From NCBI RefSeq assembly GCF_009914755.1, contig NC_060946.1: DNA of 64,000 bases; one strand, written 5' to 3'. Positions 6,189 to 39,452 of the stretch are shown here, one piece after another; the first letter of the stretch is position 1; each line of letters starts with the position of its first letter. The translations under genes and the position numbers were made by a program. The notes under the pieces were generated by a model that made no database searches, was not told the origin of the DNA, and saw only the letters and a program-made list of their open reading frames with translations. Source of the stretch: the human T2T-CHM13v2.0 reference genome, Homo sapiens.

Positions 6189-6196
6189 ATTTGCAT
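6189..6196 (+). promoter_or_regulatory. Ig promoter octamer ATTTGCAT of IGLV8-61
   Basis: Exact octamer ~100 bp upstream of the ATG, the canonical V-light promoter position. Confidence 0.93.
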
Positions 6197-18859: not shown

Positions 18860-19759
18860 ATTTGCATCCATAACCCTTCCTCTGTGAGGCCAGTGGAGGG
18901 GATAAGAGAGGCCTAGGGCAGCCACTCCAGCTCTGGACCTCGGGAGGGCTGTGTCCACCATGGCCGGGGCCCCTGCTCCTCCCTGCTGCTCCCCTCTCAC
19001 TTATCAGGTAGGGACAGGCCTCAGATTCCTGGGAAAGCCTCCCAGTCTGAGTTCTTGCCCCGTGTTCCACTCTCACATTTCATCCCTGCTTACTCACCCA
19101 TGAGCATTTGTGTTTGCAGGTTCCCCCCACCTCGGCCTGTTCTGACTCAGCCACCCTCCCTCTCTGCATCTCTGGGAAATTCTGAGGCTCACATTTACCC
19201 TGAGCTGTGGCTTCACTGCTGGTGGCTAGCACATATCCTGCTACCAGTAGCATCTAGGGAGTGCTCTCTAGTATCTCCTGAGAGATGATATATCTCCAGT
19301 GGGATAGATATCTCAAGAGTGGGCTCCTGATAAAAGGATAAAGTTCAACCCTATTTACTCATTTTCACACTCTTCTTTGCCCTTTTTCCCTGAGATAATG
19401 CAGCAGAAAGACCCTTGCCAGATTTCAGCATCTGCTTGTGGACTTCTAAGGTCACAGAAATCTCAACCAAATAAACTTTTAGTCTCAGTAAGTTACCCAA
19501 TATATGGTATTCTATTGTATCAGAAGAAAATGGAGAAAATGGACTAGGACAGCACGTGTAGAACAGTCTGCTAATCTGACTCAAGTAAGCACCATGGCTC
19601 CAGGGTCCCCGGTCACTTTTCTAAATCTAAAGATGCCTCAGCCAATGCAGTAATTCTGCACATCTCTGGGCTGCAGCCAGAGGATGAGGCTACTACATAT
19701 CTCAGCAGCCATGGCACTTCCACAGTGCTCCAGAACCCCAGGGAAGTGAGACTAGGACC
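18860..19759 (+). pseudogene. IGLV5-like pseudogene with octamer, leader, interrupted V exon and 23-RSS
   Basis: Octamer 18860-18867; ATG 18960; donor 19008; acceptor 19119; RPVLTQPPSLSASLG; after a ~265-bp insert DSSKHHGSRVPGHFSKSKDASANAVILHISGLQPEDEA; CACAGTG 19721-19727 + 23 nt + ACTAGGACC. Confidence 0.88.
19297..19561 (+). repeat. Inverted copy of 20026-20290 inserted in the IGLV5-like pseudogene
   Basis: Near-identical reverse complement of the LTR end plus 10 nt of flanking DNA. Confidence 0.9.
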
Positions 19760-20035
19760 TCCCCTGTGTTCTCTCTGCCTGGTGCAATCACCACTGTCCT
19801 GCCTGGGACCAACTCTGGCTCAGGGATTGATTCCTGTTGTTACTTTTTCAGCCAGTGTCTAATTTTCCTAGGATATATAGATGTAAAATGTGTTTTTTTC
19901 TTAAAATGTTAATTTGATATATTTTTCATATCTTTTCCCCTTATGATGCCTACAGTGGAGTAGGTCAGTTCTTAGAGCTAAGTTTCCCTCCAGGAAGATT
20001 ACAGAAGAGGAAGGAGATGAATAACCTACACGTGC

Positions 20036-20430
20036 TGTCCTAGTCCATTTCCCCCATTTTCTTCTGATATAATAGAATATCATATGTTGGGTAACTTACT
20101 GAGACTAAAAGTTTATTTGGTTGAGATTTCCGTGGCCTTAGAAGTCCACAAGCAGATGCTGAAATTTGGCAAGGGTCTTTCTGCTGCATTATCTCAGGGA
20201 AAAAGGGCAAAGAAGAGTGTGAAAATGAGTAAATAGGGTTGAACTTTATCCTTTTATCAGGAGCCCACTCTTGAGATATCTATCCCATTGCCAGGATAAG
20301 GGCACTAATCCATTCATGATGGTGGAACCCTCATGACCTAATCACCTCTTAAAGGTCCTGCCTCCAATTACTTTTACCATGATAATTAAATTCTACCATG
20401 AGTTTTGGAGGGGATATTCAAACCATACAC
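20036..20430 (-). mobile_element. MaLR LTR (MST/MLT1A-like)
   Basis: TGTCCTAGTCCATTT...CCCTCATGACCTAATCACCTC..CATGAGTTTTGGAGGGGA..TTCAAACCATA. Confidence 0.85.
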
Positions 20431-22155: not shown

Positions 22156-25100
22156 TTTTTCTTTTTTTTAAAAATTTTAAATCTTTAATTTCCGTTTTCA
22201 CTTATTTTCTTCTTGCTTCCAAAAGGAAAGGAGTGCGTAGCTCTGTTGCCTGTACATCGTCCACAGCCCCCGGCTCGGGGCAGGGTCCCCTAGGCCGCCC
22301 GGGGGTCCACATGCAGCCCCTGGGGGGCCGGCGCGGGGTGAGGTCCGGGGACCGCCTTATTGCTGAGGTCTGGCCGGTTGGGGCCGCCGCTAGGCGCGCT
22401 GGCTGGGCAGCTCCTGGGAGATGAAGCGACGCAGGCGCTCCAGGTACTGGCTGTAGAGCTCGATGTCGTTGTGCCCGGCGCCCTCCACCCACAGCGGCTC
22501 CACCGCCTTGGGGCAGCGCTCGTAGAGCGCCAGCCCGTGTGAGAAGTCGATCACCTCGTCCTCCATGCCGTGGATGATGAGCACGGGCGACGTGATCTTG
22601 GACACCTTCTCGATGTTAGGGAAGGCGTCGAAGCAGTAGGTCTTGGTGTCGGGGAAGGCGACGGGCATGCCCGAGGTGAGCGGCAGTGCAGCACCACCGC
22701 GGCACACTCGTAGCGCGAGGCCAGGTCCACGGTGGGCACCGTGCCGATGCTCTGCCCGTACAGGATGATGCTGTCCGGGCTGATGCCGTACCTGGCGGCG
22801 CCCGAGCAGGGTCAGCCGCTGCCTCCGACGCGCGCGCACCCTTCCCACCAGCGGGCGTCCCCGGGCCCAGCTCCGGATGCGACCCTCTAGTCTCCCCACT
22901 CAGCCAAGTCAGTGGGTCAGGCCCAGGCTCCACACCAGTCCCGAGGGCCACCCCCAGCCCCCCAACACCACGGCGGTGGGCGAAGCCAGCGGCCCCGCCC
23001 CGTTCCCTGGCGCTGCCGTTCACTGGCGTTTCCTAGCAAGGATCTGCAGGGATCCCGCCTACGGAGTGCCCCTGGGGCGGGGGTAGGGGAGGCCCTGGCG
23101 CCTCTTCTCCTCCTGGTCACCCCTAGGTGCACACTGGGAACTGTGTGCCCCCCACATCCTGAATGCGTCACGCCTTCCTGCCCGGGTTAGAAAGCCGTTC
23201 CTGGTGCACTGGCCAGGACAGCGGACACTCTTCCTTCCTGCAGCCCTTGCCCACCCCCTTGGCCATGAGGAATTCAGGCAGCTGTGTCCCCAAATGTCTC
23301 CACCCAATTTTGGACTCTCGGAGTCCCCACGCCCAATGAGATGCCAGTGCAACCCAGGTCAGCATCGAAGGTGGTGGCTGCGGAGGTGGCACCCCCTCCC
23401 ACCAGCACCTTCCCTTGGGAGTGGACAAGTCCTTGGCCACCTCAGCACCACCAGCTCCCACCCAGGGGCACCCTCACCCCCAGGTCACTGGTGTGCGGCC
23501 CTTGACCCAGCTGATCCAGCACCAGTTACAAGGCCTCCTCGTGCCCAGTCCCAACCACGCGGGACCCACCTGCTACCCTGCCCATGCCGGGACCCCACAA
23601 CTCTCCTCCCACACGCTCTAGGCTCTGATCCCAGGTAGATGCCCTCTTGCAAGGCAGGAGCATGGGCAGGTGTGCGTCCCCTCTGCCTGGCATTCGGACT
23701 CCACCAGCGGGCTGTCCCCGTCCCTGGCCTGGAATCCCAGCCTCCTGGCAGCACTCCACAGCTCGCCACTCACCCATGCCCCAAAGGATGCTGCCTGGCT
23801 GGTGCCTGTGGCCCCAGCTCTGCCTCGGCCTCCCTGGCCTGCTCCCTGGCAGCCATGGTCAGTAGTGTGCTGAGCCAGCCCAGCCCTGTCACCTGCTACA
23901 GGCAGGAGCCCCCAGCTGCCACCTGGATGTCACCACTCAAACGAACGGGACACATCCCCAGTGGAGGCCCTGGGCACGCTCTGGCCTCCCCCTCACAGCT
24001 CTGGGCCTAGGTTCCTGCAGGACAAAGTGGCAGCAGGACAGATGGCCGAGCAGACGAGCTCAGAGCTGGCCATGGCGGGTGTGACTCTGCCAGTGGCCCA
24101 GGCAGTAGAGACAGGAGGGGCCGAGGAAGTCGCATGAAGTGGTACTTGGTGTCAGCGCCCCACACTGCTGGGAGGCCCCCAGAGCCAGGGTGGTGCCAGG
24201 GGACCAGCTCCCAGGCCCACAGCAGGGACAGCCTGCAATATCACCAAGGCAACGAGGACCCCACCTCCCCAGGGCCTCTGACTTCTCAGAGTTGTGCCTG
24301 GTCCCCTGCAGGAGCAGGTCAGACCAGTGGGCTGGGCAGGGCCAGGACGAGACAGCCCCAGTGGATGGCGAGCAGGAAAGGCCACCAGAGGCCCACCCGG
24401 GTCTCCTCGTCCAAAGCAGCACTGGCCCGGGCGGTGCTCAAACACCGGTGAAGGGCCCAGGCAAGCGCAGGGCTGGGGACCTGGATGACTAGGAGGGCTG
24501 GATCTGGAATCGAGGCTGGCCCAGACCTCGGGTGTGTGCTGGGGGTCTGCACCCTACCCTGCAGGCCCTGCCCCAGGATGGCCAAGCTCCGCAGCCACAG
24601 GGCCTCGTGGGCCAGGCCTCGGGACCTGGATGCAGCAGCCTCGCCTCACTTGGCCCCAAGTGCTGCCTCGGCAGATGGGCTCCCAGCCACACGTGCACAG
24701 ACCCCCAGACCACCACCCACTCCCTCCCACCGGGTGGCATCCACGCCCCTGTGACAAGCTCAGCCCCTTCCCGTCCTCAGGCCAGGGGTTCCAGGGAGCC
24801 TGGCTCCACAGGCCAGGGTGTGGGAGGACCGCCTGGCCACACCTCAGCCATGTGGAGGTGGCACCTGCACACCCCAGCTCGCCTGTCCGGCTCTCTGGCC
24901 CTGTGCATCCACTGTGGCTCCCCTCCTGCAGGGCCGCCCAACTTCCTCCCAGGGAAGCCCGCCCCCCGGCCCCCGGCTTGGTCCCCTCTTGGGTGTGCCC
25001 AGGCTGAGCTGCCCCCAGGGTCGCCCTCACCTGGTGCGCAGGGCCTGCCAGGCGGCGTCGATGTCGGCATAGAGGTTCCTCTCGGAAGGCCTGCCCGCGC

Positions 25101-25930
25101 TGGCACCGTAGCCGGAGTAGTCGTAGAAGATGTTGCAGTGGAGGCGGGAGCCCAGGCCAATGTAGAAGCTGCTCATCTGGCCCAGGTCCACGGCGTTGCC
25201 GTGCGAGAAGAGGACCGTGTACCTGGCACCAGGCACGCAGCGAACATACATACAGGAGACGCGGTTGCCGCGGGCGCTCTTGGTGGGGAAGACCTCGATG
25301 GTGTCCAGCTCGCGCTGGCTGTACTGGAAGTCGGCGCGCTCCGCCAGGTGCAGCTTCCAGCGCCCGGGTGCGCCCGAGGAGGCCCGCAGGGTCCCCGAGG
25401 GGGCGGCCCCGGCCCCACCAGGCCCCGGCTCGGGCTCAGGCACCAGGGAGTAGGTGGCCTCCGGCGGCAGGAAGGCGAGCTTGGCAGCGATGCGGCCGGG
25501 GCAGGGCGGGCAGCAAAGGCAGCAGAGCTCACTCAGCGACAGCCCATTCATGGCGGGCGCCGCCCGGGCCGGGCCTCCACCGGGGCCCCCGCCAACAACG
25601 CCGCCTGGCCTGGCCCGGCAGGGGAAGCGTGGGGGTGCTCCGAGTCGCGGGCAGGGGGGAGAGCGCCCCCCCAGCTACCGCCCCAGACGGCAGCCCCGTT
25701 AGGAGGCCAGGGCCCACCCCCATCGCGGTCCAAGCCGAGCCCCAGGGAGCCTCGCAACCACAGGTCTCCATGTCGTGCCCTGGGAAGCCCATCCCGGCCC
25801 GCGCCCCCGGGCCCCAGGGCCGCGCTCCATGGCTCCCGGCCGCCCGCCCGTGCATCCGTCGGTCCCTCTGCGCCCCGGCCCGGCCTCCTGCACCGCCACC
25901 GCCGCAGCTCCCCCACGGACGGAAGTGAGT
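22156..25930 (-). pseudogene. ABHD17AP5: Semi-processed ABHD17A (FAM108A1) retrocopy: ATG 25551, retained intron 25030-22792, stop 22392-22390
   Basis: [31 protein letters not shown]...WQALRTR / [35 protein letters not shown] / ...[30 protein letters not shown]. Frameshift near 22685; two single-codon deletions; poly(A) ~22156-22169; TSD TTACTGAAATTTTC at 22142-22155 and 25931-25944. The paralogue number is inferred from the position next to IGLV8-61. Confidence 0.93.
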
Positions 25931-27249
25931 TTACTGAAATTTTCAAGCCACAGAAAGAACAAAAGAAGTAATATCCATTATATTGTCCAAAACAATAGTA
26001 CCTGGAAGATCTGGAGGCAAAAATGAAGCCTGAGAATAGCAGGACATAGACATATTTCATAACATAGACTCACAGCAGAATAATGGTTATGTTGGTTCAT
26101 TAGGGAAGAAAACACTAAACAGCTCTTGCAAATACACTCAATATACAGTAAGATAGCTTGTGATTTTAACGAGTTAGCAAAGCAGAACAATGAGGCAAAA
26201 GCAAACAGAAACACTAAAAGAAATCCATTCTCTAGAATCATTTTTAAAGACTTTGCTAGATTTACCAAATAATTCAGTATTGACTTATTCTGTCTCCATT
26301 TTATTTCATAATGGAACCCGTCTAATTTTATGCTAAATGTATGCTGTAAGGACACCTTGCTACTCTGAAAAAATAAGGGATCAGTGGATAAAAGACCATA
26401 TTTTATTAAAAAAAGAGTGTGTTTTGATGCATGATTTTGTGACTCTACATTTTTAAGTAAGGATGAAGAACTTGGTGATTAATTAAATGATTCCTCAGTT
26501 GCTCATCAATGCCATCAGATGCCTTGAATATACTGTGAGGACAGCATCTGGAAGAAATGGAGGAGATCTGAGTAATAATTCAGATGGAGCCAATTTCCAC
26601 AATCTTATTTTCCCATTACCTGCAGCTCTGAATTTAACTAAGTCTCTGTGTTAACAACTTGTATTGTTTATCTGGGTGAATGACCTCAGAAGACACCAGG
26701 CAGCTGGATGCCTGCACTTCTTTCGTGCTAATGGTTCATATAGTCTCCTCACCCCCAACACTTTGATACTTCCTTGAAACTGGATTACATATGAGATAGA
26801 AACAAAGAATGCAGGTGCCATAATGACTCTCAGGAGTCACTGAATCTGTGTTCATGATGCATTACTGTGCCAGCTGCCTCCCTCTTCTTGTGAAGGCCCT
26901 TCTTTATTCCTTGAGATGTGCTCATCATGAAATAGCTACAAGCATATCATCTGCTTGCCTTGCCCGTTATAGCAACCATGAAAATAAATTTGCAGCATCA
27001 TATATAGCCCAAATATTCTCGAAAGATGATCCTAATAGCTCTAATAACAAAATAAGTTTTCTACAGAGTAGCTATATGTACCTGCTCTCAGCTTATGTAA
27101 ACTTGTGTTTTTATTGCTCTTAAAGCAAAATTTTTCCTAAAATTGAGAAAAGAACTAAAGTTCTTTGTCATTATATGAAGAAAGATACAGCATCTAATAT
27201 TGTGAACTTCTCTATTTTGAGATGTTTTCAGACATCAAGACTGGATAAT

Positions 27250-27549
27250 AGGCTGGGCACGGTGGCTCACGCCTGTAATCCCAGCACTTTGGGAGGCCGA
27301 GGCAGGCGGATCACGACGTCAGGAGATTGAGACCATCCTGGTTAACATGGTGAAACCCCGTCTCTACTAAAAATACAAAAAAATTAGCCGGGTGTAGTGG
27401 TGGGTGCCTGTAGTCCCAGCTACTTGGGAGGCTGAGGCAGGAAAATGGCGTCAACTCGGGAGGCGGAGGTTGCAGTGAGCCGAGATCACGCCACTGCTCT
27501 CCAGCCTGGGCGACAGAGCAAGACTCCGTCTCAAAAAAAAAAAAAAAAG
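27250..27549 (+). mobile_element. AluY/Sc
   Basis: Full dimer; TSD AAGACTGGATAATA. Confidence 0.92.
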
Positions 27550-27607
27550 ACTGGATAATAAAATTATTTAACAATTCGGAACATAAATTTAGAATTGAAA
27601 AAAGCTT

Positions 27608-27655
27608 TATACTATACTATACTATACTATACTATACTATACTATACTATACTAC
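27608..27655. repeat. (TATAC)n pentanucleotide microsatellite
   Basis: ~9 perfect units. Confidence 0.95.
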
Positions 27656-29149
27656 TAACACATTTTGTTTGAGCATGGTTGCCTTATAAGTTTTTGGTAG
27701 TTCAATGAAAATAATGGCTACTTGTGAGAAAACTGAAATAGACTAGGACATAGTAGATAGAGATAGAAAGAACAGGTAAATTAACTGTCTATGCCACATG
27801 GCAAAGAAAGTTTACAGTACGTAGTCATTAAACGTACATGCTTATAAATATATAACCAATGATGAATAATTTTAAATGCAATTTAGCAGAATTCAGACCG
27901 TTTTATATTAAACATATATTTCTGAATGAAATATAAAATCTATTGAATGAGGGAGACACTTTATATGTGTAATTAATCTCATAAATAGAGAAGACTTTTA
28001 CAATAGTTTGTACACTTTAGCTATAAACTGTAATTCAAGAGATTCAGTAAGAGTAGCTTTTTGTAACTTAAATATTCTATATTTTCCTTGCATACATTTT
28101 TGCCTTTGATCATGTATTTTATTTAGCCTGCTAAGATGGTAGAGAAGGTACAGACAGTAAGCTTTTCAACCTGACACATAAATTCAGGTTATTTGAAAAT
28201 GGAATGGTAAAGTGTTACTGAAGAACTTTTACTATGGTTCGCATTTGGTAATATTTCCTAATTATTCTATAAACAAAATCCAAAAAAACCTTGATTTCAT
28301 AACATAAACTTCTGAGGTCTAAATTAATCAATAAAATAAATTTGTTTTAATTAATTATATTTTATTTTGATGCTAATTTCATAATAGATTAAATACTAGC
28401 TGAGGCTCATTAGAGGTAAACTAGAGAATTATCATCCCATTAAGATAAATTTTGATTCAGGGAAGTAACATCTTGGAAGTTTACTAAATTTAAATTTAGG
28501 AGGAATTTACTAAATCAAGTACCAAGATTTTATTTCTGCACCAAATGGAAGACATATGTAAAATTTAAATACATTCCATTACTTAATTTACTCTTTACTA
28601 TCATGAGAATTAGTATAGACAGCATATTTTACACAGAGCATACAAAGCCTTATCTTCATTGAATTACAAGTAAAATATATGTATGTACATATAATTATAT
28701 ATGTAATTTAGATATTAAATGACAGAATTTACTTATTTACCTGTGTGTGATGGAATTTGATTCTAGTAATTATTCCAGGTACAGTAACTGGTTGAAAATG
28801 GGACATGAAGTAAACTGATATGCTTACAAGTAATTACAGCAAGCGAATTCATTGTAATGTCTCCAAGCAAAGCAAGACTACCCACATGAGATAAGAAATG
28901 AGAGGCTACTTATTTTGACCAAGTTAGCTCGGTGACTTGGGGACCAAGGACTACATGCACATGGATGCTTCTTTTGTACCCCTACCCCTGCCAAAAAATA
29001 TGTTTCCATGGCAATATTTGGGAACCCATTATTTCCCAATTGATGCTTTTACTTTCATATAAGACAACAGTTGATACTCCAAAATCAACTTACATTTTAA
29101 TTAACCAAATACAATGTTCCTAAAGACAAAGAGAAACATTTCATAACAA

Positions 29150-30305
29150 TAAGAGTTAAGCCAACAGAAAGATAGGGAGTATGAAAAAACAGAGAAAATC
29201 AATAAACCAAAATTAAATGCTTGAAAAGACAACACAATTGGCAAATGTTTATTTAGGCTAAGCAAGAAAAAAGCAGAAGAGACTCAAGTTTCTAAAATCA
29301 GCAATAAAAGAGAATCCATCACTGCTAGTAATACAAAATAAAAATAAAAGACAATGCAATGAAAATCTTATGCTAAAAAAATTAGATAGCCTAGATAGAA
29401 TGAAGTCCTAGAAAGACACAAACTAAAACAGACTAAAGGACTAAGGAGCAATAGAAAATCTAAATAGACCTACAAAAGGTAAAAAGATTGGATTGTAATT
29501 TTAAGAACTTATAATAAAATTCCCATCTCAGGTAGCTATCACTCTGAGAAATTAATATCAATTGTTCACCAACTCTTGCAGAAAATAAAAGGGGAGAGAA
29601 CACTTCCCAATTCATCTTATAAAGCCAGGATTACTCTGACACCAAAGCTATATCACAAAACAATATATAACAGTATCTTTCTTTTTTTTTTTTTCAGATG
29701 GAGTCTCACTCTGTCGCCAAAGCTGGAATGCAGTGGCCCAATCTCGGCTCACTGCAACCTGTTTCCTGGGTTCAAGTGATTCTCCTGCCTCAGCCTCCCA
29801 AGTAGCTGGGATTACAGGTGTCTGCCACCACGTCCGGCTAATTTTTGTATTTTTAGTAGAGATGGGGTTTCATGTTGGCCAGACTGGTCTTGAACTCCTG
29901 ACCTCAGGTGATCTGCCAATCTCTGCCTTCCAAAGTGCGATATAAGTGTGAGCCTTATATCACGGTGAGCCACTGTGCCTGGCCCATTGTTTAAATAAAA
30001 TTAAAAATCTTCAACAAAATACTGGACAAACTGAATCCAGCAACATATAAAATAGATTATACACTATATGCAGATGTGATTTACCCCAGCAATGCAACAT
30101 TGATTTAATATTTGAAAATCAATGCATACAAAAATCGTATTAATAGAATAAAACACAAAAATACATGAGCATCTCAACAGAAAGTATTTGAGAAAATATT
30201 ACACATTTTCATCATAAAACACTCCAGAGTTATGGACAAGAAGATAACTTCCTGAAACTAGTGGTAGTTATCTATGAAACCCACAGCTATCATTATACTT
30301 ACCAA
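29150..30305 (+). mobile_element. Old L1 ORF2 fragments with an antisense AluS (29680-29984)
   Basis: [23 protein letters not shown]; GAATCCAGCAACATATAAAA. Confidence 0.8.
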
Positions 30306-30339
30306 GGAGAGAGTGAATGACTAATCAGAATGACCACTC

Positions 30340-31070
30340 TTGCAAATTCTCCCTTTTTCACCTTCCTGCTCTCATCACCCTCTTTTGCTCCTCCATCTTC
30401 CCAAAAACATTTTCCCCCATCTTTTCCCAAAGCCTTCTCCCCTCTCCTGCTGCTCACCACCATTTTATCCCCCTCCACCTACCCCAAAACTTTTTTCTCA
30501 CACCCCCACCATCTTTTCACAATGCCTTCTCCCCACTCCTGCTTACCAACCTCTTTTCCCCACTCCTGCCCCTCTCCCATATGCCACTCTTTTTTCACCC
30601 TCCATCTACCCCAAAACTATTTGTCTTCCCAACCCTCCTTCCCCTCATGCTCGCCACCATCTTTTCCCCCTCCATCTACCCAAAAACTTTTCTCCCCACT
30701 GTCTTTTTGCAAATCCTTCCCTCCCTCCCGCTTGCCCATTTTCCCCACCTTTACCAACCTCTCTTTACTCCTCCCACTTGCCACCCTCTTTTCCCCCTCC
30801 ATCTGCCCAAAAACTTTTTACCCACCATCTTTTCCCCACCCTGTTTTCACAAAACCTTTTCTCCCTCCTGCTCAGCCCCCCGTTTTTCCCTCTCCTATTT
30901 GCCAACCTCATTTCCCCCTCCATCTACCCAAAAACGTTTTTTTTTCCCACCGTCTTTTTCCTATTGCCTTTTTGCAATGCCTTCTCCTGCTTGCCATCCT
31001 CTTTTCCCGTTGGTACTCACCACCCTGTTTTCCTCCTCCATCTACCCCAAAACTATTTTCCCCCTCTTAC
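30340..31070 (+). repeat. Degenerate pyrimidine-rich (C/T) minisatellite
   Basis: Core CCCCCTCCATCTACCC(C/A)AAAAC recurs ~7 times at ~70-127 bp spacing; + strand nearly devoid of G. Confidence 0.85.
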
Positions 31071-31240
31071 CACTCCGGTCGCACTGCAGTCGCCATCTCG
31101 GCCACCACCCACAGTGAGGCGAGCCGCGGTGCCGCAGGCTGCAGCCTCCAGCATTTGGCAGGTGTCTTCCTTCCCCTTCTCCTCTGCCTTTAAGTTGGGC
31201 ACAGAAGAGCTGTGTAGGCAAACAGGAAAGAACCCGGGAT
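31071..31240 (-). other. BAGE-like first exon, leftward
   Basis: Minus strand ..GCTGGAGGCTGCAGCCTGCGGCACCGCGGCTCGCCTCACTGTGGGTGGTGG.. resembles the recalled BAGE 5' exon; ends at donor GTG|GTAAGA (31070). Confidence 0.6.
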
Positions 31241-31243
31241 GGT

Positions 31244-31531
31244 CTGACTCCCCCACCTCAGCATACTTTATATGCGGAGTTATGCAAATGAGTTCTGGGA
31301 CTACATGTTCTGATTGGATGAGAGAAAAACCTCTAGGCATACTCAGATTTGGACTTTGTTATCATGTTCTGACTGGATGAGAGCAAGTCTTAAAACGACC
31401 AATCAGAACATGATAATAAAGTCCAATCAGAGTAGGCCTAGAGGTTTTTCTCTCATCCAATCAGAACATGCAGTTCAGGAATTCATTTGCATACCCTCCC
31501 TGTATAAAGCATGTTGAGTGGGCAGAGTCAG
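31244..31531. promoter_or_regulatory. Palindromic bidirectional Pol II promoter-like element
   Basis: Arms 31244-31376 and 31399-31531 are imperfect reverse complements. Each arm carries TATAAA (31267-31272 minus; 31503-31508 plus), an octamer (31282-31289; 31485-31492) and CCAAT boxes (31313 minus; 31399, 31423, 31457 plus). Confidence 0.8.
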
Positions 31532-31698
31532 GGTCTTCCGTATATTCTCCCCGTACCGTCCGTGCTCGGCTTAGTGCAGGAAGAGGAGAAGAACGGGAAG
31601 ACAACCGCGGCACAGCAGCTTACCTGCTGATGTTGGCTGTGGTGATGGAGCCTGCTACCGGAGCCACAGTGGCCCACAGCGGGAGCATGGCCAGAGTG
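31530..31698 (+). other. BAGE-like first exon, rightward
   Basis: Starts ~25 nt after the TATA; ends ATGGCCAGAGTG|GTAGAA, compared with recalled BAGE ATGGCGGCCAGAGCG. Confidence 0.6.
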
Positions 31699-31714
31699 GT
31701 AGAAAGACAGTGGG

Positions 31715-32935
31715 GCAGGTATGCTATCAGAGCTGCGCTGCCCGCGGTGAGGGCAGATTGGGGGCGCTATCTGGGGTTGCATTGCCTAGGTGGGTTCTGT
31801 GCAGTATCGGGGACTACGTTACTTGCGGAGGTGGAACAGGGGAAGGGGGTGGGGTGGGGGGTACACTATTGAGGATGGGATTAGGTGTGCTATCGGGGGC
31901 CGTGCTGATCATCAAGGCGGCTTAGGTGTGCTATCGGGGCAGGGGACACGCTGCTCCGAGTTGGGGGATGTTACAGGGGCTACACTGCCTGTGGCTGGCA
32001 GGGGTTAGGGGCACTATCTGGGGCTGCACAGCCGGTAGTGGGTGGCGTGTTAGGGACGCTATAAGCTACTGTGTTGTCTGTGCCCCAGGGAGGGTTGGGT
32101 GTGGGGTTGGGTGTGCTATCGGAGGCTACAGTGCTAGCAGACAGGTTAGGGGCACTGTTGGGTGTTGCACCGCTTGTGCCAAGGGGTATGTTTGGTGTGC
32201 TATTTGGGGCTACAAGGGGCAGGTTGGGAGCACTGTCGGGTGCTGCACTGCCCATGGCAAGGGGTGGGTTGGGTGCACTATCAGGGGCTACACTGCCCAG
32301 GGCGGGGCGGGTGGGGGGGGCGTGCTATCCTGGGCTTCACTGCCCATGGCGGGGGGCTGGCTGGGGACGCTGTCATAGGTTGCATTGGGGTGGTAGGGGG
32401 CGGGTTCGGTGTGGTATTGGGGGCTGCATTGCCAGCAGTGTGGGGGGGGGGGTGGTTGGGGGCACTGTCAGGAGCTTGCGCTGTCAAGCTAGTAGCAGGT
32501 TAGGTGTGCTATTGGGGGCTGCACTGCCCGAGGTAGGGGGGCGGATTAGGTGCGCTATTGGGGGCTAAACTGCCCACAGCTGGCGGGGTTTGGGGGCTCT
32601 GTTGGGGGGTTGCAGTGTCAGAGGCGGGTTAGGGGCATTATCAGCTGCTGCACTACCCGTGGCAGGAATCAGGTTGGGGGCACTATCGGGTGCTGCAATG
32701 CCTGTGGTGGGGACGGGTTGTGGGCATTATCGGGTGCTACACTGCTGGCGGTGGAGTGGTTGGGGGTGCTATCGGGGTCACACTGTCAGCGGCGGGGGAC
32801 AGGTTAGGGGTGCTATCGGATGCTACACTGTGGTGGAGGGCAGGGGGTGGGGTGTTGAGAGCGCTATTTGAGGACTACATTGCTGGCAGCGGGGGGCGGA
32901 TTAGGGGCACTCTCAGGGCTGCACTGCCGGCAGCA
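31715..32935 (+). repeat. Degenerate G-rich ~40-50 bp minisatellite
   Basis: Recurring GG(G/T)G(T/C)(G/A)CTATCGGG..GCT(G/A)CACTGC..GGCGGGTT units with many G3+ runs. Confidence 0.85.
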
Positions 32936-33492
32936 GGCAGCAGAGGTGGCAGTGACAGCAGTGGTCTCCACGGAAAGGACAGTCCTTCCCTCCCTGGACT
33001 CCAGGCTTTACAAAGCGATTTTCTCCTGCTTAAGTACAGAGGACATACAGTGTTTCCGCAGGAATACTGAGCACGGCAGGGCCCCCCACATCTGCTGTGG
33101 TTCCCTGGGTTACACCCTCTCGCTCTGTGTTGTGGATACTGCCTGGGACCCCCAGGCACCGAGTAACGTGCACCACGTGGGGGACGGTGCTCTCTGGGTG
33201 GAGGCTCAGGAATGAGAGCCCGCACTTGGGTGGGGAGAGCTGGCTGGGTCTGACTTTTTGCTGCTTCCGTTCCCCTAGGACCGCAGCTCTGGTGGGCCCA
33301 GTGGTTCCTGCGGAGTGGGGAGCCGGGCACTGTGGTGTCTCCAGTCCCCACCACAGGCTCCGATTCATGGCCAGCTTGGGCCGAAAGGGGAGGGTGGGTG
33401 TCAGTGCCTTCGCTGAAACTGGCACCTGCCACCCAGTGGCCAGCATGACCAAGGTGAGGCTTTAATGCTACCACTCCCTGCATCTGTTCTAG

Positions 33493-33673
33493 GTTTTTCT
33501 GGCTTTGCCTGCCCAGCAGTCTGTGCCCACCTAGAGGAGTAGGAGGGGCCACCATGCCGCATGCTGGAGGCTGGAGCCCGCAGCCTGCAGATGGCACAGT
33601 ACTACAGCTCGCCTTGCTGCGGTTGGTGGCAGTGATGGAGACTGCAGCTCGACCCCAGCGATGGAGGCTGGAG
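33493..33673 (+). other. BAGE-like exon 2
   Basis: Acceptor TGTTCTAG|GTTTTTCTGGCTTTGCCTGCCCAGC resembles recalled BAGE GTTTTTCTGGCATTGTCTGCCCAGC; downstream GCTGGAG..GGCACAG..GTGATGGAGAC.GCAGCTC is colinear; candidate donor GAG|GTAGGA. Confidence 0.7.
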
Positions 33674-35435
33674 GTAGGAGGGTACCTGGTGGTGGCCACG
33701 TGGTAGGAGCCTTGTAGGGTGGGGCTGGTGCATTGAGAGCAACAGCAGCAGTGGTTGTATTGGCATGGGCATTAGTGGTGGCAGCAGCAGCAAGTCTGTG
33801 AGCCGGGAAGGGGGTAGTAGGAGCCCTGCAAGGCCCAGCTGGCCTGGGGTGGGTAAGAAGCAGTGGGTGCTGCAGCGTGGGCCTCGGTGGCAGCAGTGGA
33901 AGTGCAGCCAGGGCAAGGAGTCCTCCCCCACCTTTCTGCAGTCTCTGGAGGGCGCCCACCTCCTGCTGGCTCCTGAGCCAGGCATGAGTGGCAGCATTGT
34001 CTCATTCTTAACAAAATTTAGGGAATGACTATTTGTGTATCTTTTTGCTTGTTTTTTGTTGTGTTAATCTTGGACTTTTCGAATTTCATGAATCAGGGAG
34101 TGGATAAAAGGTATCATAATAGGCCTTCTAACTCTATCACCTGATTTTTTTCCTTTCTTCCAGTCTGTTTTTTCTTATCACCATCATCTTGTTCTTTATT
34201 TTCTTATGCTGCTGCCTATATTTCTGGTTTCTATTCTTGTTTCTCTTTCTGGTCCTCCTGCTTTTTGTTTTCTTTATCCCAAGCAATGGCCTTAACAAAC
34301 TGAAACTGAGTTAAAAGTAAACTACTTGCTAGTGTGTTGTATTTTTAAAGTAATTGGTCCATTACTGTGTTTTAGAGATGAGAAAGTAGTTGCATAATGA
34401 TTTAGTTACTTGAATAGCTTTGCTTTCGTGATCCTGTTAATGCGTTGTAAGTAGTTATGCAAGGAATCAAAAAATGAAGCATCAAATAAAATACTGATAG
34501 CAAACAGTCATTTCATCTCTCTCCCATATAGTCTGGAGATAAATGCAAGTCAGGGGGTTAATAAGTTCCAAAAATTTATGAGATCGTTAAGTGAACCACA
34601 TTCCCTTCATTTTATTTTTCTGCCACAGTTTTCAAGAGCATTGTCATTTGCATGAGCAAACCTTGTTCACCACATCTTTGCAACAGGGAAGGGAAGGGGA
34701 GGATCATATGTACAATGTTTTAAGGCAAAAAAATTCACAACCAAAAGCAAGGCTTTATTAACTTTCACCTTCGAGAAGCTGCAGTGTTGAGCCCTGTTTT
34801 ATTCCTAGTATTACTGCCTTTGATACGAACTCTTAAGTGATCACTTTAGAAGTTAATGCATTTTATTGACTGCTTTCAAGAAACAGTCTATATTGTATCA
34901 TGCATGTTTTTCAAGCCCGCAGAATTGTATAAGGCCTATATATACATAGGGCCTATAATTTTGACACTTTTTAATGATTTATAAGGTTACGATCATGTAA
35001 AATCCTGTTGACACGTGAGAATATGCCTAAGTACCGCTAGATAGCTTATTTTGAAGAGATAGTTATTTTGAAGAGATAGAAATTGGTTGCAGTTTGTTAG
35101 GTGTATTTGTCAATGCATTGCCTCAATGCTTTAAAGCATATAGAAGTTTGAATATGCTTTAATCTCATGTAGTCCTTTGTTTATAGGGTGTTTAATATTT
35201 TTAAAGACTAAAGATGTCACAGCCCCCTTTAAGGTTCAGTAATATTAAGATTGGAGATTTATAGGGTTAGAATCCAACAAATTCAGAGGAAAATTGTTAA
35301 ATTATATAGCTGTAGAGCAGGAAATGAAACCCAGGTTCTAAGCTCTAAGGGGACCATGAGCTGCCATACCAAGTGCATCAGTGACTGGGCATAGAGTTGG
35401 CAGAATTACAGGATGGTTAAGAGAGTGAGCTGTAG

Positions 35436-35840
<405 letters not shown>

Positions 35841-35859
35841 TAAGGTTTTCTTTTTCTTC

Positions 35860-36950
35860 TCAGTTGACTGAATTATTTCCATAGTCTGTCTGTCTTGCCA
35901 CTCTTGTTACCCACACGAAAGGACCTAAGGTAATTTCTGACAGCCTGGGACTCCTTGTGCAAAACAGAAGGTGCCACAGACCTCATTTTAGGAGAAACCT
36001 TTGTTTTCCTCTTGGAACCCCAAGAACTGTAAGCAGACAGGTCCATCTCAAAATCCAAGGCTCTGCTCTGTTTTGCTTTGCTTTACCTGACTTTTTTTTT
36101 GATTTGGGTGGGCATCAAAAATTAGTAGGGGAGAGCTAAAGAAAGTTGTGGATATGAACATGTATTTATGGTAAGGTAAGTTATGAAGGAGAGAAATCTT
36201 AGGATCTTGTATGGCAAATTCTTGCACTAAAGTAGATAATGACTAATTAGGAAAGCAGGAAATATAGGACAAGTCAGAAAGTCATAAGATGGGAGAGAAA
36301 AGCTTACGCCTGGTAGATCCTCTCCTGTCTAGAAGTGTCGTATGTGTGATGTTTATATGAAGGAGCTCTAATTAATTGGATTAAAAGATAATGAAAGCTC
36401 TAAAATTGTCAGAAAAATAGAAGCTCTAATGCCTTTTATTTCACGTGACTTCAGCAATCTTTGGGAAATGAGAGTTTTAAAATTATTGGTGGTAAAAAGT
36501 CTTCAAAAAGTAGACATTTGGTCTAAATTAAGTCAGAGGTTAAATTGGCTAAGTGCTTTAATGTCATAAACTGCTTCTTTGACTTTGGAAAATTGTTCAG
36601 TTTACCTAATTTGGAACTGTTAGATTTCTAGGTAAGGCCTGGGGAGAGGTGGAGTTAGCCATGTCTCCTAGCTATGCTGGAAGAGTTAGACTTTATCTGC
36701 AGTTCTGTCATGTATCCTGGACTCTGCACCTGGTATGTAATTGAAACTGCTTACATTGAAAAGAAAAATTATGTGTTTTTGGTTTTAAAAGGGGTGGGAA
36801 TATGGTTTTTTCCAAAAAGTGAGTTTTGGCAAATTTAGAAAGTTTAAGAATTATTTTTAGTTGTAAGAAAATAAAGTTTAAGCAAGTTATAGAAGGTTTA
36901 TGAAAATTAACTTTGTAAAGAATTGTGTGTGTGAGCAAGTTGACTAAAGG
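35860..36950 (+). mobile_element. ERV1 (MER4-group) internal fragment
   Basis: Composition and motifs typical of non-autonomous MER4-group internal regions; no ORF. Confidence 0.55.
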
Positions 36951-37104
36951 GACAGTAATGTTAGATGTAATAAATGCAGGTACCCTTCCACTTTATCTTC
37001 TGTTTCTTAGGTTATAAATATTCACTACCTACGTTTCTAAAAACTCTTTCACTGTAATATTAACACATAACTCCATTCTCCTTGTATTGCCTGCTTTTTC
37101 ATAG

Positions 37105-38115
37105 TATCCTGAAATTGCATTAGTAGATTTAGATTCAGAAGATGGTGGGGAAGCATCTTATGAGTGTTTTAAGTAAATTTAAGGCAAAGGGTTTTCTGTA
37201 CATGGGTGGTTATCACAGCATCACTTGTTGCAGCAAAACACTGGGTAACAACAATGTTTATCAATGAGAAATTGTTCGGATAAATGATGATTTGTGCCTT
37301 GCGAGGCTCAACTATTCAAAAGCACCCTCTTTTCCTCACTTGCTTTACCTTTGGTTCTGGGCCTGGAGCCTTTCAGAGGTTACTCAGGAAATGGACTCCT
37401 GTTTCCTGTGACTAATCTGGACAGCGGCTTCCTATTTCATTCTTCAGCATCTTCCAAAAATTTCTGAAGATAATTTCTTCCTTTGTGACCACCCATACTC
37501 TTGGTTTACTTTGCAGTTAACAATTTCATGCCTTCACTAGATTATCTGTGTGAAGGTGTGGGGTGTATGTGTTCATACTCTGGAGGGAGCAGAGGAAAAT
37601 AGCCACAGCCAAAGGAGTAATCTTGCACTAAATACTCATTATAAGAATGTTGATACGTTCATAGATGGTAAATCTGTCAGTAATTTTTGCTTGTATGATT
37701 CTTGGTTAAGACTGCACTCACTGGTGATAAGCGTGCTGAAGGGATCATAGGTGCTATACTTATGTGTGGGAATTGCATTCAAACCACCAATGCCTGTCTA
37801 CTCAAGTTTTGTTGCCTTTTGATTAAAAACTCTTGGGAATGTTTCCCTGGCATGCAAATATGGGAACTGCAGTTTGATTCTAGGTAGAAACTCTTTGGTA
37901 GTTGAAATGCCATAATAAGAGACACAGCTGTCAATGGGCAACAATTCACTGTTGGTAAGGAATTTACAGTGCTACTTGCCATATCCTTTATCCAGACTTT
38001 GTGCCAAGAAAATGAAATTCTTTTTAAAAATTTTTTTCTAGAGTAATCCTACAATATTGCTGTTATCAAGCCTGATGCTGTAATTAGTAGAAAATGTCTA
38101 GAAATTAAAAGAAAA
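37105..38115 (+). pseudogene. Unprocessed two-exon fragment of NME8 (TXNDC3): exons 37105-37172 and 38042-38115
   Basis: YPEIALVDLDSEDGGEASYECF vs recalled NME8 YPEIPLVDSDSEVSEESPCESV; *SYNIAVIKPDAVISRKCLEIKRK vs ELYSIAIIKPDAVISKKVLEIKRK. Both exons are bounded by polypyrimidine-AG and GT. Confidence 0.88.
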
Positions 38116-38548
38116 GTAGTATTTTCCAACTATGGTTAAATTAATTGCAAAATAACTTCCTCTTAATTGTCAGATTGGAGACAAGCTTATTAAGAGTGAA
38201 ATAAAACATAATGTGTTGCTGGTGCTAGGTACCTCTAAAGCCTTTGAGCACTTTCTTCTTTATAAAGGCTCAATCTACTCATGTGTCCTGTAAATAATCC
38301 TGCTCTACCAGCATCCTATGTAAATTTTAAAAATTATAGTTCATATATTAGATTGTAACAAATGTTGTTCTTCTTTAATTATATGCAATGCAATCTTGTT
38401 ATAGACTCACATTAGCTTGCCTTATTCCCTGTATGTTTGTTGTAAAATGTATAGTCCTTTTCAATATATGATAGCTTAAAGATGGACTTAATATTTTGTT
38501 TTAGAACCAAAATCTTTTATCTTATATACAGGAAAATTACATTGGAAT

Positions 38549-38763
38549 TCAGAGATCAGCAAACATTTCCTGTAAAGGATGAAATAGTAACTATTTTCAG
38601 GTTTGCTCAGCATGTGGTCTCTGACAACTAAACTCTGAAGTCATACCAAGGCAGCATCAGTAATGTTTAAATGAGTGAATGGCGCTGTGTTCCAATAAAC
38701 TTTATTTACAGAAACAAGTGGTGGGCCACATTTTGACTGCAGGGTATAGTTTGTGGACCCCTG
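38549..38763. mobile_element. MER58A DNA transposon
   Basis: CAGAGATCAGCAAAC..CTGTAAAGG..GTTCCAATAAACTTTATTTACA..GTTTGTGGACCCCTG termini. Confidence 0.8.
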
Positions 38764-38819
38764 AACAATGGCTTTTTCTGAAACAACACAATTGAATTGA
38801 GATTTGAAAGAATGTTGAG

Positions 38820-39452
38820 GCAGCATTGTTTGTCTGGGGTAATACCTGAGGTTTGTCATCTCACACCAGGGAAATCAGGGATGTGGACACACAAGAAGTG
38901 AGTTCAAGAGTGGATGATTAATAGGTGAAAGAAAGAGAAAAGAGAACAGCTCTCTCTCCTGCAGAAAGAGAGAGGGGCACCTGAGTGGGTCTTCCGGTTT
39001 TGTGGTGAAAAGCACAAGGTTTTATAAAGGAGCTTGAGGAGGTGGTGTCTTGATTTACACAGGGCTCTAGAGACTGGTTGGACCAGGTGTGAACGTTTGC
39101 ATAGCACAGGGAGAAGCTGGCCATTGCACCCTAATCTTTTATTATGCAGATGGGTTCTTTACCTTACCAGGACCATATTGTCTGTTCCTTACTGTACCTG
39201 TGGTTGACAGAGAAAAGGGAAGATGGAGCCACCATGTTGAACATGCCTGGCCCACAGGTAGCCTTTTCCTATTGGCACAGCTGCTGGCATTCCTATGAGA
39301 GCTTATCAATGTCTGCAGCCCAATTTTACAAGATGCTCTTTGTTAGAAAATAAATGATATGGGTTTTTTTTTTCATTAGTAGGAAAACTTTACACTAGGA
39401 CTTCCTTACTTTCAGTATCTGCCTAAATAATTTCTTTTTAATTCCTACATCA
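38820..39452 (-). mobile_element. MER50-like solo LTR
   Basis: Minus strand begins TGATGTAGGAATTAAAAAGAAATTATTTAGGCAGATA. Confidence 0.7.

What the first reader, a model, noticed from the sequence alone, without database searches (positions are those of the whole stretch)
31244..31531. ~290-bp palindrome in which each arm is a full TATA + octamer + CCAAT promoter
Seen: two ~133-bp inverted arms around a 22-nt spacer, each reading outward CCAAT boxes > ATTTGCAT > ~10 nt > TATAAA > exon > splice donor. The left arm also has GGGACTACA, resembling the ZNF143/THAP11 core. Known: an octamer ~10 nt before the TATA with upstream CCAAT boxes is the histone H2B promoter layout, and OCT1/OCT2 with OCA-B drive Ig V promoters through the same octamer. 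Inference: inverted duplication created a bidirectional promoter that could be recruited in B cells (sense and antisense germline transcription affecting V accessibility) or in germ cells, and could extrude a cruciform.
Basis: partly seen in the sequence, partly recalled or inferred. Interest (0 to 1): 0.75.

Follow-up and report, generated by a model that had tools for sequence, protein, structure and literature searches.

The report
REP522 repeat's two-way promoter core
This 290-base mirror-image stretch in the antibody lambda locus is one of more than fifty scattered copies of an old duplicated human element, most likely the known REP522 repeat, whose core likely works as a normally silenced two-way promoter for testis and cancer transcripts rather than as a B-cell switch.

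Summary
The palindrome is real: two ~133-nt arms, 112 of 131 aligned bases matching, a 22-nt spacer, and octamer plus TATAAA in both arms. Only the right arm keeps three exact CCAAT boxes; the left keeps one.

It did not arise in IGL. 58 of 59 loci examined carry the element, 42 as full palindromes, mostly with the same flanks. Two links tie it to REP522. miR-5701, reported inside Rep522, maps only within two sister palindromes. BAGE, reported to hold a large REP522 region, starts just outside the right arm of seven copies. The window keeps a decayed BAGE-like exon 1, intron and exon 2.

Across copies the CCAAT triplet is conserved, while octamer and TATA decay as fast as neighbouring bases. 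BAGE-type arms lack both. The IGL copy is the only one of 42 with octamer+TATA on both sides, but chance retention is likely enough (about 0.4).

Verdict: a copy of a known repeat already reported as a cancer-activated promoter. Its activity here is untested and a B-cell role is unsupported.

The parts
31244..31376 (-). Left palindrome arm, read outward: two damaged CCAAT (31372-31376, 31347-31352), one exact CCAAT (31313-31317), octamer (31282-31289), TATAAA (31267-31272)
31377..31398 (.). 22-nt asymmetric spacer; 20-22 nt in all 42 full copies
31399..31531 (+). Right palindrome arm: three exact CCAAT (31399, 31423, 31457), octamer (31485-31492), TATAAA (31503-31508)
31401..31419 (-). Homologue (2 mismatches) of the annotated miR-5701 sequence, which maps exactly only in two C15 sister palindromes
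31297..31305 (+).
31535..31718 (+). Predicted rightward exon 1, weakly homologous to BAGE exon 1; start codon lost, donor GT kept at 31719-31720; start site inferred
   Evidence: score 54, best of 200 shuffles 41
31730..32940 (+). Degenerate ~45-nt G-rich repeat array in the position of BAGE intron 1
33414..33782 (+). Decayed BAGE-like exon 2 region; acceptor AG at 33491-33492; frame reads VFLALPAQQSVPT then stops
   Evidence: score 299, best of 200 shuffles 40
31070..31211 (-). Predicted leftward exon-like stretch, also homologous to BAGE exon 1, ending at a donor-like GT near 31070
   Evidence: score 113, best of 200 shuffles 49
30351..31068 (.). C/T-rich degenerate repeat array; shared homology stops near 30351 in most copies that carry it
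25931..39439 (.). Approximate span of the old duplicated block holding the element (paralogous pieces mostly 72-85% identical)

Best explanation
The palindrome is the centre of an old multi-copy element spread by segmental duplication, most likely REP522, and its core likely acts as a two-way CCAAT (NF-Y) promoter that is likely silenced in normal somatic cells and opened in germ cells and tumours. Shown here: it is a copy of a dispersed family; the inversion predates most of the dispersal; its right arm is homologous to the DNA directly upstream of BAGE exon 1; the CCAAT triplet is the slowest-changing part; octamer and TATA are often lost. From papers: REP522 promoters are cancer-activated, and BAGE loci are methylated or H3K9me3-marked in normal tissue and expressed in tumours and male germ cells. 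Inferred: NF-Y binds the back-to-back CCAAT triplets and starts Pol II outward on both sides, near 31535 (+) and 31240 (-). The IGL copy is likely a passenger that happens to retain the ancestral octamer-TATA on both arms. If active it would make non-coding RNA, because its BAGE-like frame is broken.
For: 80 matches = 40 loci, each hit on both strands, from 40 scored of 65 candidates. A 20-nt core word gives 160 genome hits against 3 for its reversed control. 58 of 59 loci examined carry the element: 42 full, 13 shortened, 3 single-armed. Flanks are shared. Arms cluster by side: 5 label changes against 11.5 shuffled, 0 of 500 shuffles as low. miR-5701 is reported in Rep522 and at 15q11.2 and maps exactly twice, both inside C15 palindromes. 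BAGE is reported to hold a large REP522 region. 7 of 11 PF08180 hits lie 1.7-2.1 kb from a copy, and the published BAGE primer named +32 starts 113, 146 and 170 nt after the right-arm CCAATs in the same 7 loci. Changes per column: CCAAT 1.0, octamer 4.75, TATA 4.67. REP522 is described as ~1.8 kb, largely palindromic and enriched among cancer-activated promoters.
Against: No Dfam or Repbase consensus was available, so REP522 membership rests on two indirect anchors. No expression, binding or methylation data for this copy could be examined. Evidence for selection on CCAAT is modest: against the other inner columns p = 0.015, and 0.27 without CpG columns. Inner non-motif divergence (0.14) lies within the range of flank windows (0.08-0.31). 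Copies were found by similarity to this core, which favours conserved cores. The IGL left arm has lost two of three CCAAT boxes. The RefSeq table given shows no transcript or functional element at 31244-31531. Transcription in both directions was not shown for any copy in the passages I read.
Confidence: 0.72

Rival explanations
1. The IGL copy was co-opted in B cells: OCT1/OCT2 with OCA-B bind both octamers and drive divergent non-coding transcription that affects V-lambda accessibility.
For: It is the only one of 42 full palindromes with octamer+TATA in both arms; none of 17 further loci has it on both sides. It lies inside IGL, where V promoters use the same octamer (IGLV8-61).
Against: Intact octamers occur on both sides in unrelated lineages, so this looks like the ancestral state. 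From arm-wise rates in the other 16 lineages, the chance that at least one of 17 keeps both is 0.42. The octamer changes as fast as its neighbours (p = 0.49). Octamer-TATA pairs occur 627 times in the genome. The nearest V segments are about 24 kb and 38 kb away.
Confidence: 0.1
2. The IGL copy is a dead fossil: permanently methylated and never transcribed, with motifs surviving by chance and slow decay.
For: BAGE-like start codon and frame are lost. Two left-arm CCAAT boxes are damaged. CpG observed/expected is 0.16-0.64 across the element. No RefSeq transcript is listed.
Against: The right arm retains three CCAAT, octamer, TATA, the exon-1 donor and the exon-2 acceptor. Sister loci are reported active when repression is lifted.
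Confidence: 0.3
3. The conserved feature is structural, not a promoter: the palindrome is a fragile or recombinogenic site that promotes duplication and arm exchange.
For: Arm exchanges and flips are visible: L013/L016/L017 carry a left-arm variant in the right arm, L019/L025/L037 show swapped inner markers, L018 has swapped flanks. Homology ends sharply near 30351. Ig orphan pieces abut two copies.
Against: No family-wide arm homogenisation (own arms closer in 9 of 17 lineages, p = 0.68). The centre is imperfect, with a 22-nt spacer. Shortened copies that lost most of one inner arm also spread (13 loci).
Confidence: 0.12

Closest known systems
REP522 (largely palindromic, unclassified interspersed repeat, about 1.8 kb)
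   Same: Palindromic, dispersed; contains the miR-5701 sequence and sits at BAGE loci, both reported for REP522.
   Different: The shared unit here extends beyond 1.8 kb (at least 30351-34400). This copy lies in a chromosome-arm Ig locus.
BAGE gene family 5' end (PF08180)
   Same: Right arm, exon 1, repeat-filled intron and exon 2 are collinear and homologous.
   Different: BAGE right arms lack octamer and TATA. The window copy keeps them but has no start codon or open BAGE frame.
Histone H2B promoter (octamer bound by Oct-1/OCA-S)
   Same: Same ATTTGCAT octamer, followed by a TATA box, with CCAAT upstream (layout recalled).
   Different: No histone gene here (annotation given). The octamer is not conserved across the family, and both directions carry the same module.
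Ig V-gene octamer promoter (IGLV8-61, octamer near 6190)
   Same: Same octamer in the same locus.
   Different: No leader exon, V exon or RSS follows either arm; the V promoter shows no CCAAT triplet or mirror arm in the 481 nt read.
LTR12/ERV9 multi-CCAAT promoters (recalled)
   Same: Works alike by recollection: a repeat-borne array of CCAAT boxes, silenced in soma and active in germline and cancer.
   Different: One-directional retroviral LTRs; homology was not tested and no LTR features were sought here.

Membership tests
REP522 | Largely palindromic structure | tested here: met
   290-nt core palindrome, weak symmetry to about 31064/31732; description
REP522 | Interspersed multi-copy repeat | tested here: met
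   58 of 59 loci examined; lower bound
REP522 | Contains miR-5701 (reported overlap) | tested here: met
   2 exact genome hits, both in sister palindrome arms; window homologue with 2 mismatches
REP522 | Present at BAGE loci (reported) | tested here: met
   7 of 11 PF08180 hits beside a copy; the other 4 were not examined
REP522 | Alignment to the Repbase/Dfam consensus; length about 1.8 kb | not testable with these tools
   No repeat library is offered; boundaries of the annotated unit are unknown
REP522 | Cancer-activated promoter at this copy | not testable with these tools
   No CAGE data; Kaczkowski 2016 was not held
BAGE gene | Homologous exon 1, intron and exon 2 | tested here: met
BAGE gene | Open BAGE reading frame | tested here: not met
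   Start codon absent, frame stops after 13 residues of exon 2; no PF08180 hit in the window
Histone H2B-type promoter | Octamer shortly upstream of TATA | tested here: met
Histone H2B-type promoter | Octamer conserved or required | tested here: not met
   20 of 84 arms keep it; 4.75 changes per column
ZNF143/THAP11 site | ACTAYRNNNCCCR motif (recalled) | tested here: not met
   0 of 84 arms
miRNA precursor | Rfam family at gathering threshold | tested here: not met
   Only sub-threshold hairpin matches (best 74.8 against 144 bits) in 5 loci scanned

The most novel reading that the evidence does not exclude
The REP522 core is a portable two-way NF-Y promoter that seeded several primate cancer-testis genes (BAGE, and possibly RFPL-family genes), and the IGL copy is the one member kept with both octamer-TATA modules because B cells use it through OCT2/OCA-B to transcribe across the distal V-lambda cluster.
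Probability: 0.1. Interest if true: 0.7.

Novelty: new member of a known kind. Interest (0 to 1): 0.3.

Why it matters
REP522 is reported as a pan-cancer-activated repeat, but I found no description of its promoter anatomy in the passages I could read. The mirror CCAAT-triplet core and its position upstream of BAGE give a concrete, testable mechanism for that activation. They also suggest that miR-5701 is a piece of this palindrome rather than an evolved miRNA. For IGL biology the value is low unless B-cell binding at this copy is shown.

Tried and rejected
Locus-specific inversion: rejected. Family-wide concerted evolution of arms: not supported (9 of 17 lineages, p = 0.68), though the window's own inner arms are closer than average (0.056 against 0.101). 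Conserved ZNF143 site: rejected. Known RNA family: only sub-threshold hairpin hits. Pfam scans of frames around the copies: 90 frames (of 258 listed) gave one V-set hit and 64 further frames gave one C1-set hit; no POTE or other gene was identified this way. The sigma-70 scan is irrelevant to a human promoter. 'REP522' occurs in 14 held papers. No listing named this IGL copy or the CCAAT-octamer-TATA layout, but most subscription papers are not held, including Kaczkowski 2016, whose supplement may list this copy. PMC310890 was not held. Wide flanks of sister copies were not read; their extent comes from search coordinates only. Primate orthologues could not be searched.

Full report
OBSERVATION. 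The arms are 31244-31376 and 31399-31531 around 22 nt, with 112 of 131 aligned bases matching. The strand folds at -111.7 kcal/mol, z -15.6. Each arm has ATTTGCAT followed 9-10 nt later by TATAAA, the only two such pairs in the window. The right arm has three exact CCAAT boxes, the left only one. The centre has just 3 perfect pairs before a mismatch, so cruciform extrusion is unlikely (general knowledge).

IT IS A DISPERSED ELEMENT. The 288-nt core gave 80 matches, i.e. 40 loci each hit on both strands; 40 of 65 candidates were scored. A 20-nt core word had 160 hits against 3 for its reversed control, of which 100 were listed. I read the window, 39 loci and 19 further loci. Of these 59, 42 are full palindromes with a 20-22-nt spacer, 13 are shortened (12 of them by about 59 nt), 3 have one arm and 1 is unrelated. 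Most 5-kb loci also share the C/T-rich array from 30351, the ~45-nt G-rich array and the sequence beyond 33070. Pieces of homology run from about 25931 to 39439 at mostly 72-85% identity. That divergence implies an age of tens of millions of years (inference from a recalled substitution rate).

THE INVERSION PREDATES DISPERSAL. In a tree of 34 arms from 17 lineages (one copy per cluster at 10% distance; the other 25 full copies were left out), the left/right label needs 5 changes against 11.5 shuffled, with 0 of 500 shuffles as low. Backbone support is weak. A locus's own two arms are not generally closer than arms from different loci (9 of 17, p = 0.68). Sporadic exchange is visible in some lineages.

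IDENTITY. I recalled REP522 and then tested it. A meeting abstract describes REP522 as about 1.8 kb, largely palindromic, unclassified and strongly enriched among cancer-activated promoters (PMC4896275, passage). First anchor: a preprint says miR-5701 overlaps Rep522 (10.1101/2021.12.09.471935, passage), and PMC9365560 places it at 15q11.2 (passages and supplement rows). Its sequence (PMC8677043 supplement row) has two exact genome hits, both in palindrome arms of L041 and L043 on C15. The window homologue is at 31401-31419 with 2 mismatches. Second anchor: PMC3560060 reports a large REP522 region at BAGE, marked by H3K9me3 in human liver and active in Tc1 mouse liver (passages). Seven of 11 PF08180 hits lie 1.7-2.1 kb from a copy; the other four were not examined. 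In the same seven loci the BAGE primer named +32 (PMC3757347, passages) starts 113, 146 and 170 nt after the three right-arm CCAATs. The window keeps homology to BAGE exon 2 (score 299 against 40 for the best shuffle) and to exon 1 on both sides (113 against 49 leftward; 54 against 41 rightward, weak). The rightward donor and the acceptor are intact but the frame is lost.

WHAT IS CONSERVED. 62 of 84 arms keep three exact CCAAT boxes. 20 keep the octamer and 17 keep octamer+TATA. In 12 lineages with an alignable flank (5 dropped), pairwise divergence is 0.06 at CCAAT, 0.15 at other inner columns, 0.31 at the octamer, 0.34 at TATA and 0.23 in the flank. Parsimony changes per column are 1.0, 1.9, 4.75 and 4.67; the octamer does not differ from its neighbours (p = 0.49). 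Against over-reading: CCAAT versus other inner columns is p = 0.015, or 0.27 without CpG columns; flank windows range 0.08-0.31; and copies were found by similarity to this core. All six full BAGE-type right arms checked lack both octamer and TATA but keep at least three CCAAT, and BAGE is reported as expressed in tumours and male germ cells. So the octamer looks dispensable for that promoter (inference).

THE IGL COPY. It alone among 42 full copies has octamer+TATA on both arms. From rates in the other 16 lineages (2 of 16 left, 4 of 16 right), the chance that at least one of 17 keeps both is 0.42. Octamer-TATA pairs occur 627 times genome-wide. IGLV8-61, about 24 kb away, has its own octamer. 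BAGE loci were methylated in controls, and BAGE was silent in both ICF and control blood or lymphoblast cells (PMC3084872, passages); those arms lack the octamer, so this bears only weakly on the IGL copy.

MECHANISM. Most likely NF-Y binds back-to-back CCAAT triplets and starts transcription outward on both sides, with optional help from octamer and TATA; methylation and H3K9me3 keep it off in soma (inferred from anatomy and from sister loci; untested here). REP522 RNA is also reported to rise at the 8-cell stage (PMC6545021, passages) and in lung cancer samples (PMC6925957, PMC11353194, passages). The H2B likeness (PMC5706932, passages) is a likeness of layout only. PMC7556247 gave one passing mention and PMC8524813 no main-text mention.

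VERDICT. A real and striking feature, but a copy of a known repeat family already linked to promoter activity. What may be new is the motif-level anatomy and the explicit link to the BAGE 5' end; my 10 searches did not surface them, but the key subscription papers were not readable. Interest 0.3.

Noticed in passing
window 19297-19561 and 20026-20290: A 265-nt, 97% inverted repeat brackets an unannotated V-lambda-like 3' fragment near 19600-19720 with a framework-3-like frame and a CACAGTG heptamer; no Pfam hit for that frame.
   Followed up: partly
L023:2914-3166 (G000:C2 near 95.454 Mb): A heavy-chain-like V-set frame ends tail-on about 300 nt outside the right arm, cut just before where its RSS would be.
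   Followed up: partly
L019:3871-4245 and G000:C22:32822249: An Ig C1-set orphan lies about 1.3-1.6 kb outside one arm and an RFPL RDM exon 3.0 kb outside it; another RDM exon lies 11.8 kb from the L037 copy (2 of 13 hits). These may be RFPL3 and RFPL2 (names recalled) using the palindrome as promoter.
   Followed up: partly
L047-L057, L059: A shortened subfamily lacks about 59 nt, i.e. two CCAAT boxes of one arm.
   Followed up: partly
L013, L016, L017; L019, L025, L037; L018: Signs of arm-to-arm conversion and of inversion of the centre relative to arms or flanks.
   Followed up: partly
L041:2466 and L043:2475: Annotated miR-5701 is simply one inner arm of this palindrome, which questions its status as an evolved miRNA.
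   Followed up: partly
window 22200-25925: The ABHD17AP5 block is a much younger duplication (90-97% to copies on C22, C1, C17, C19, C15 and C16) abutting the old block.
   Followed up: no
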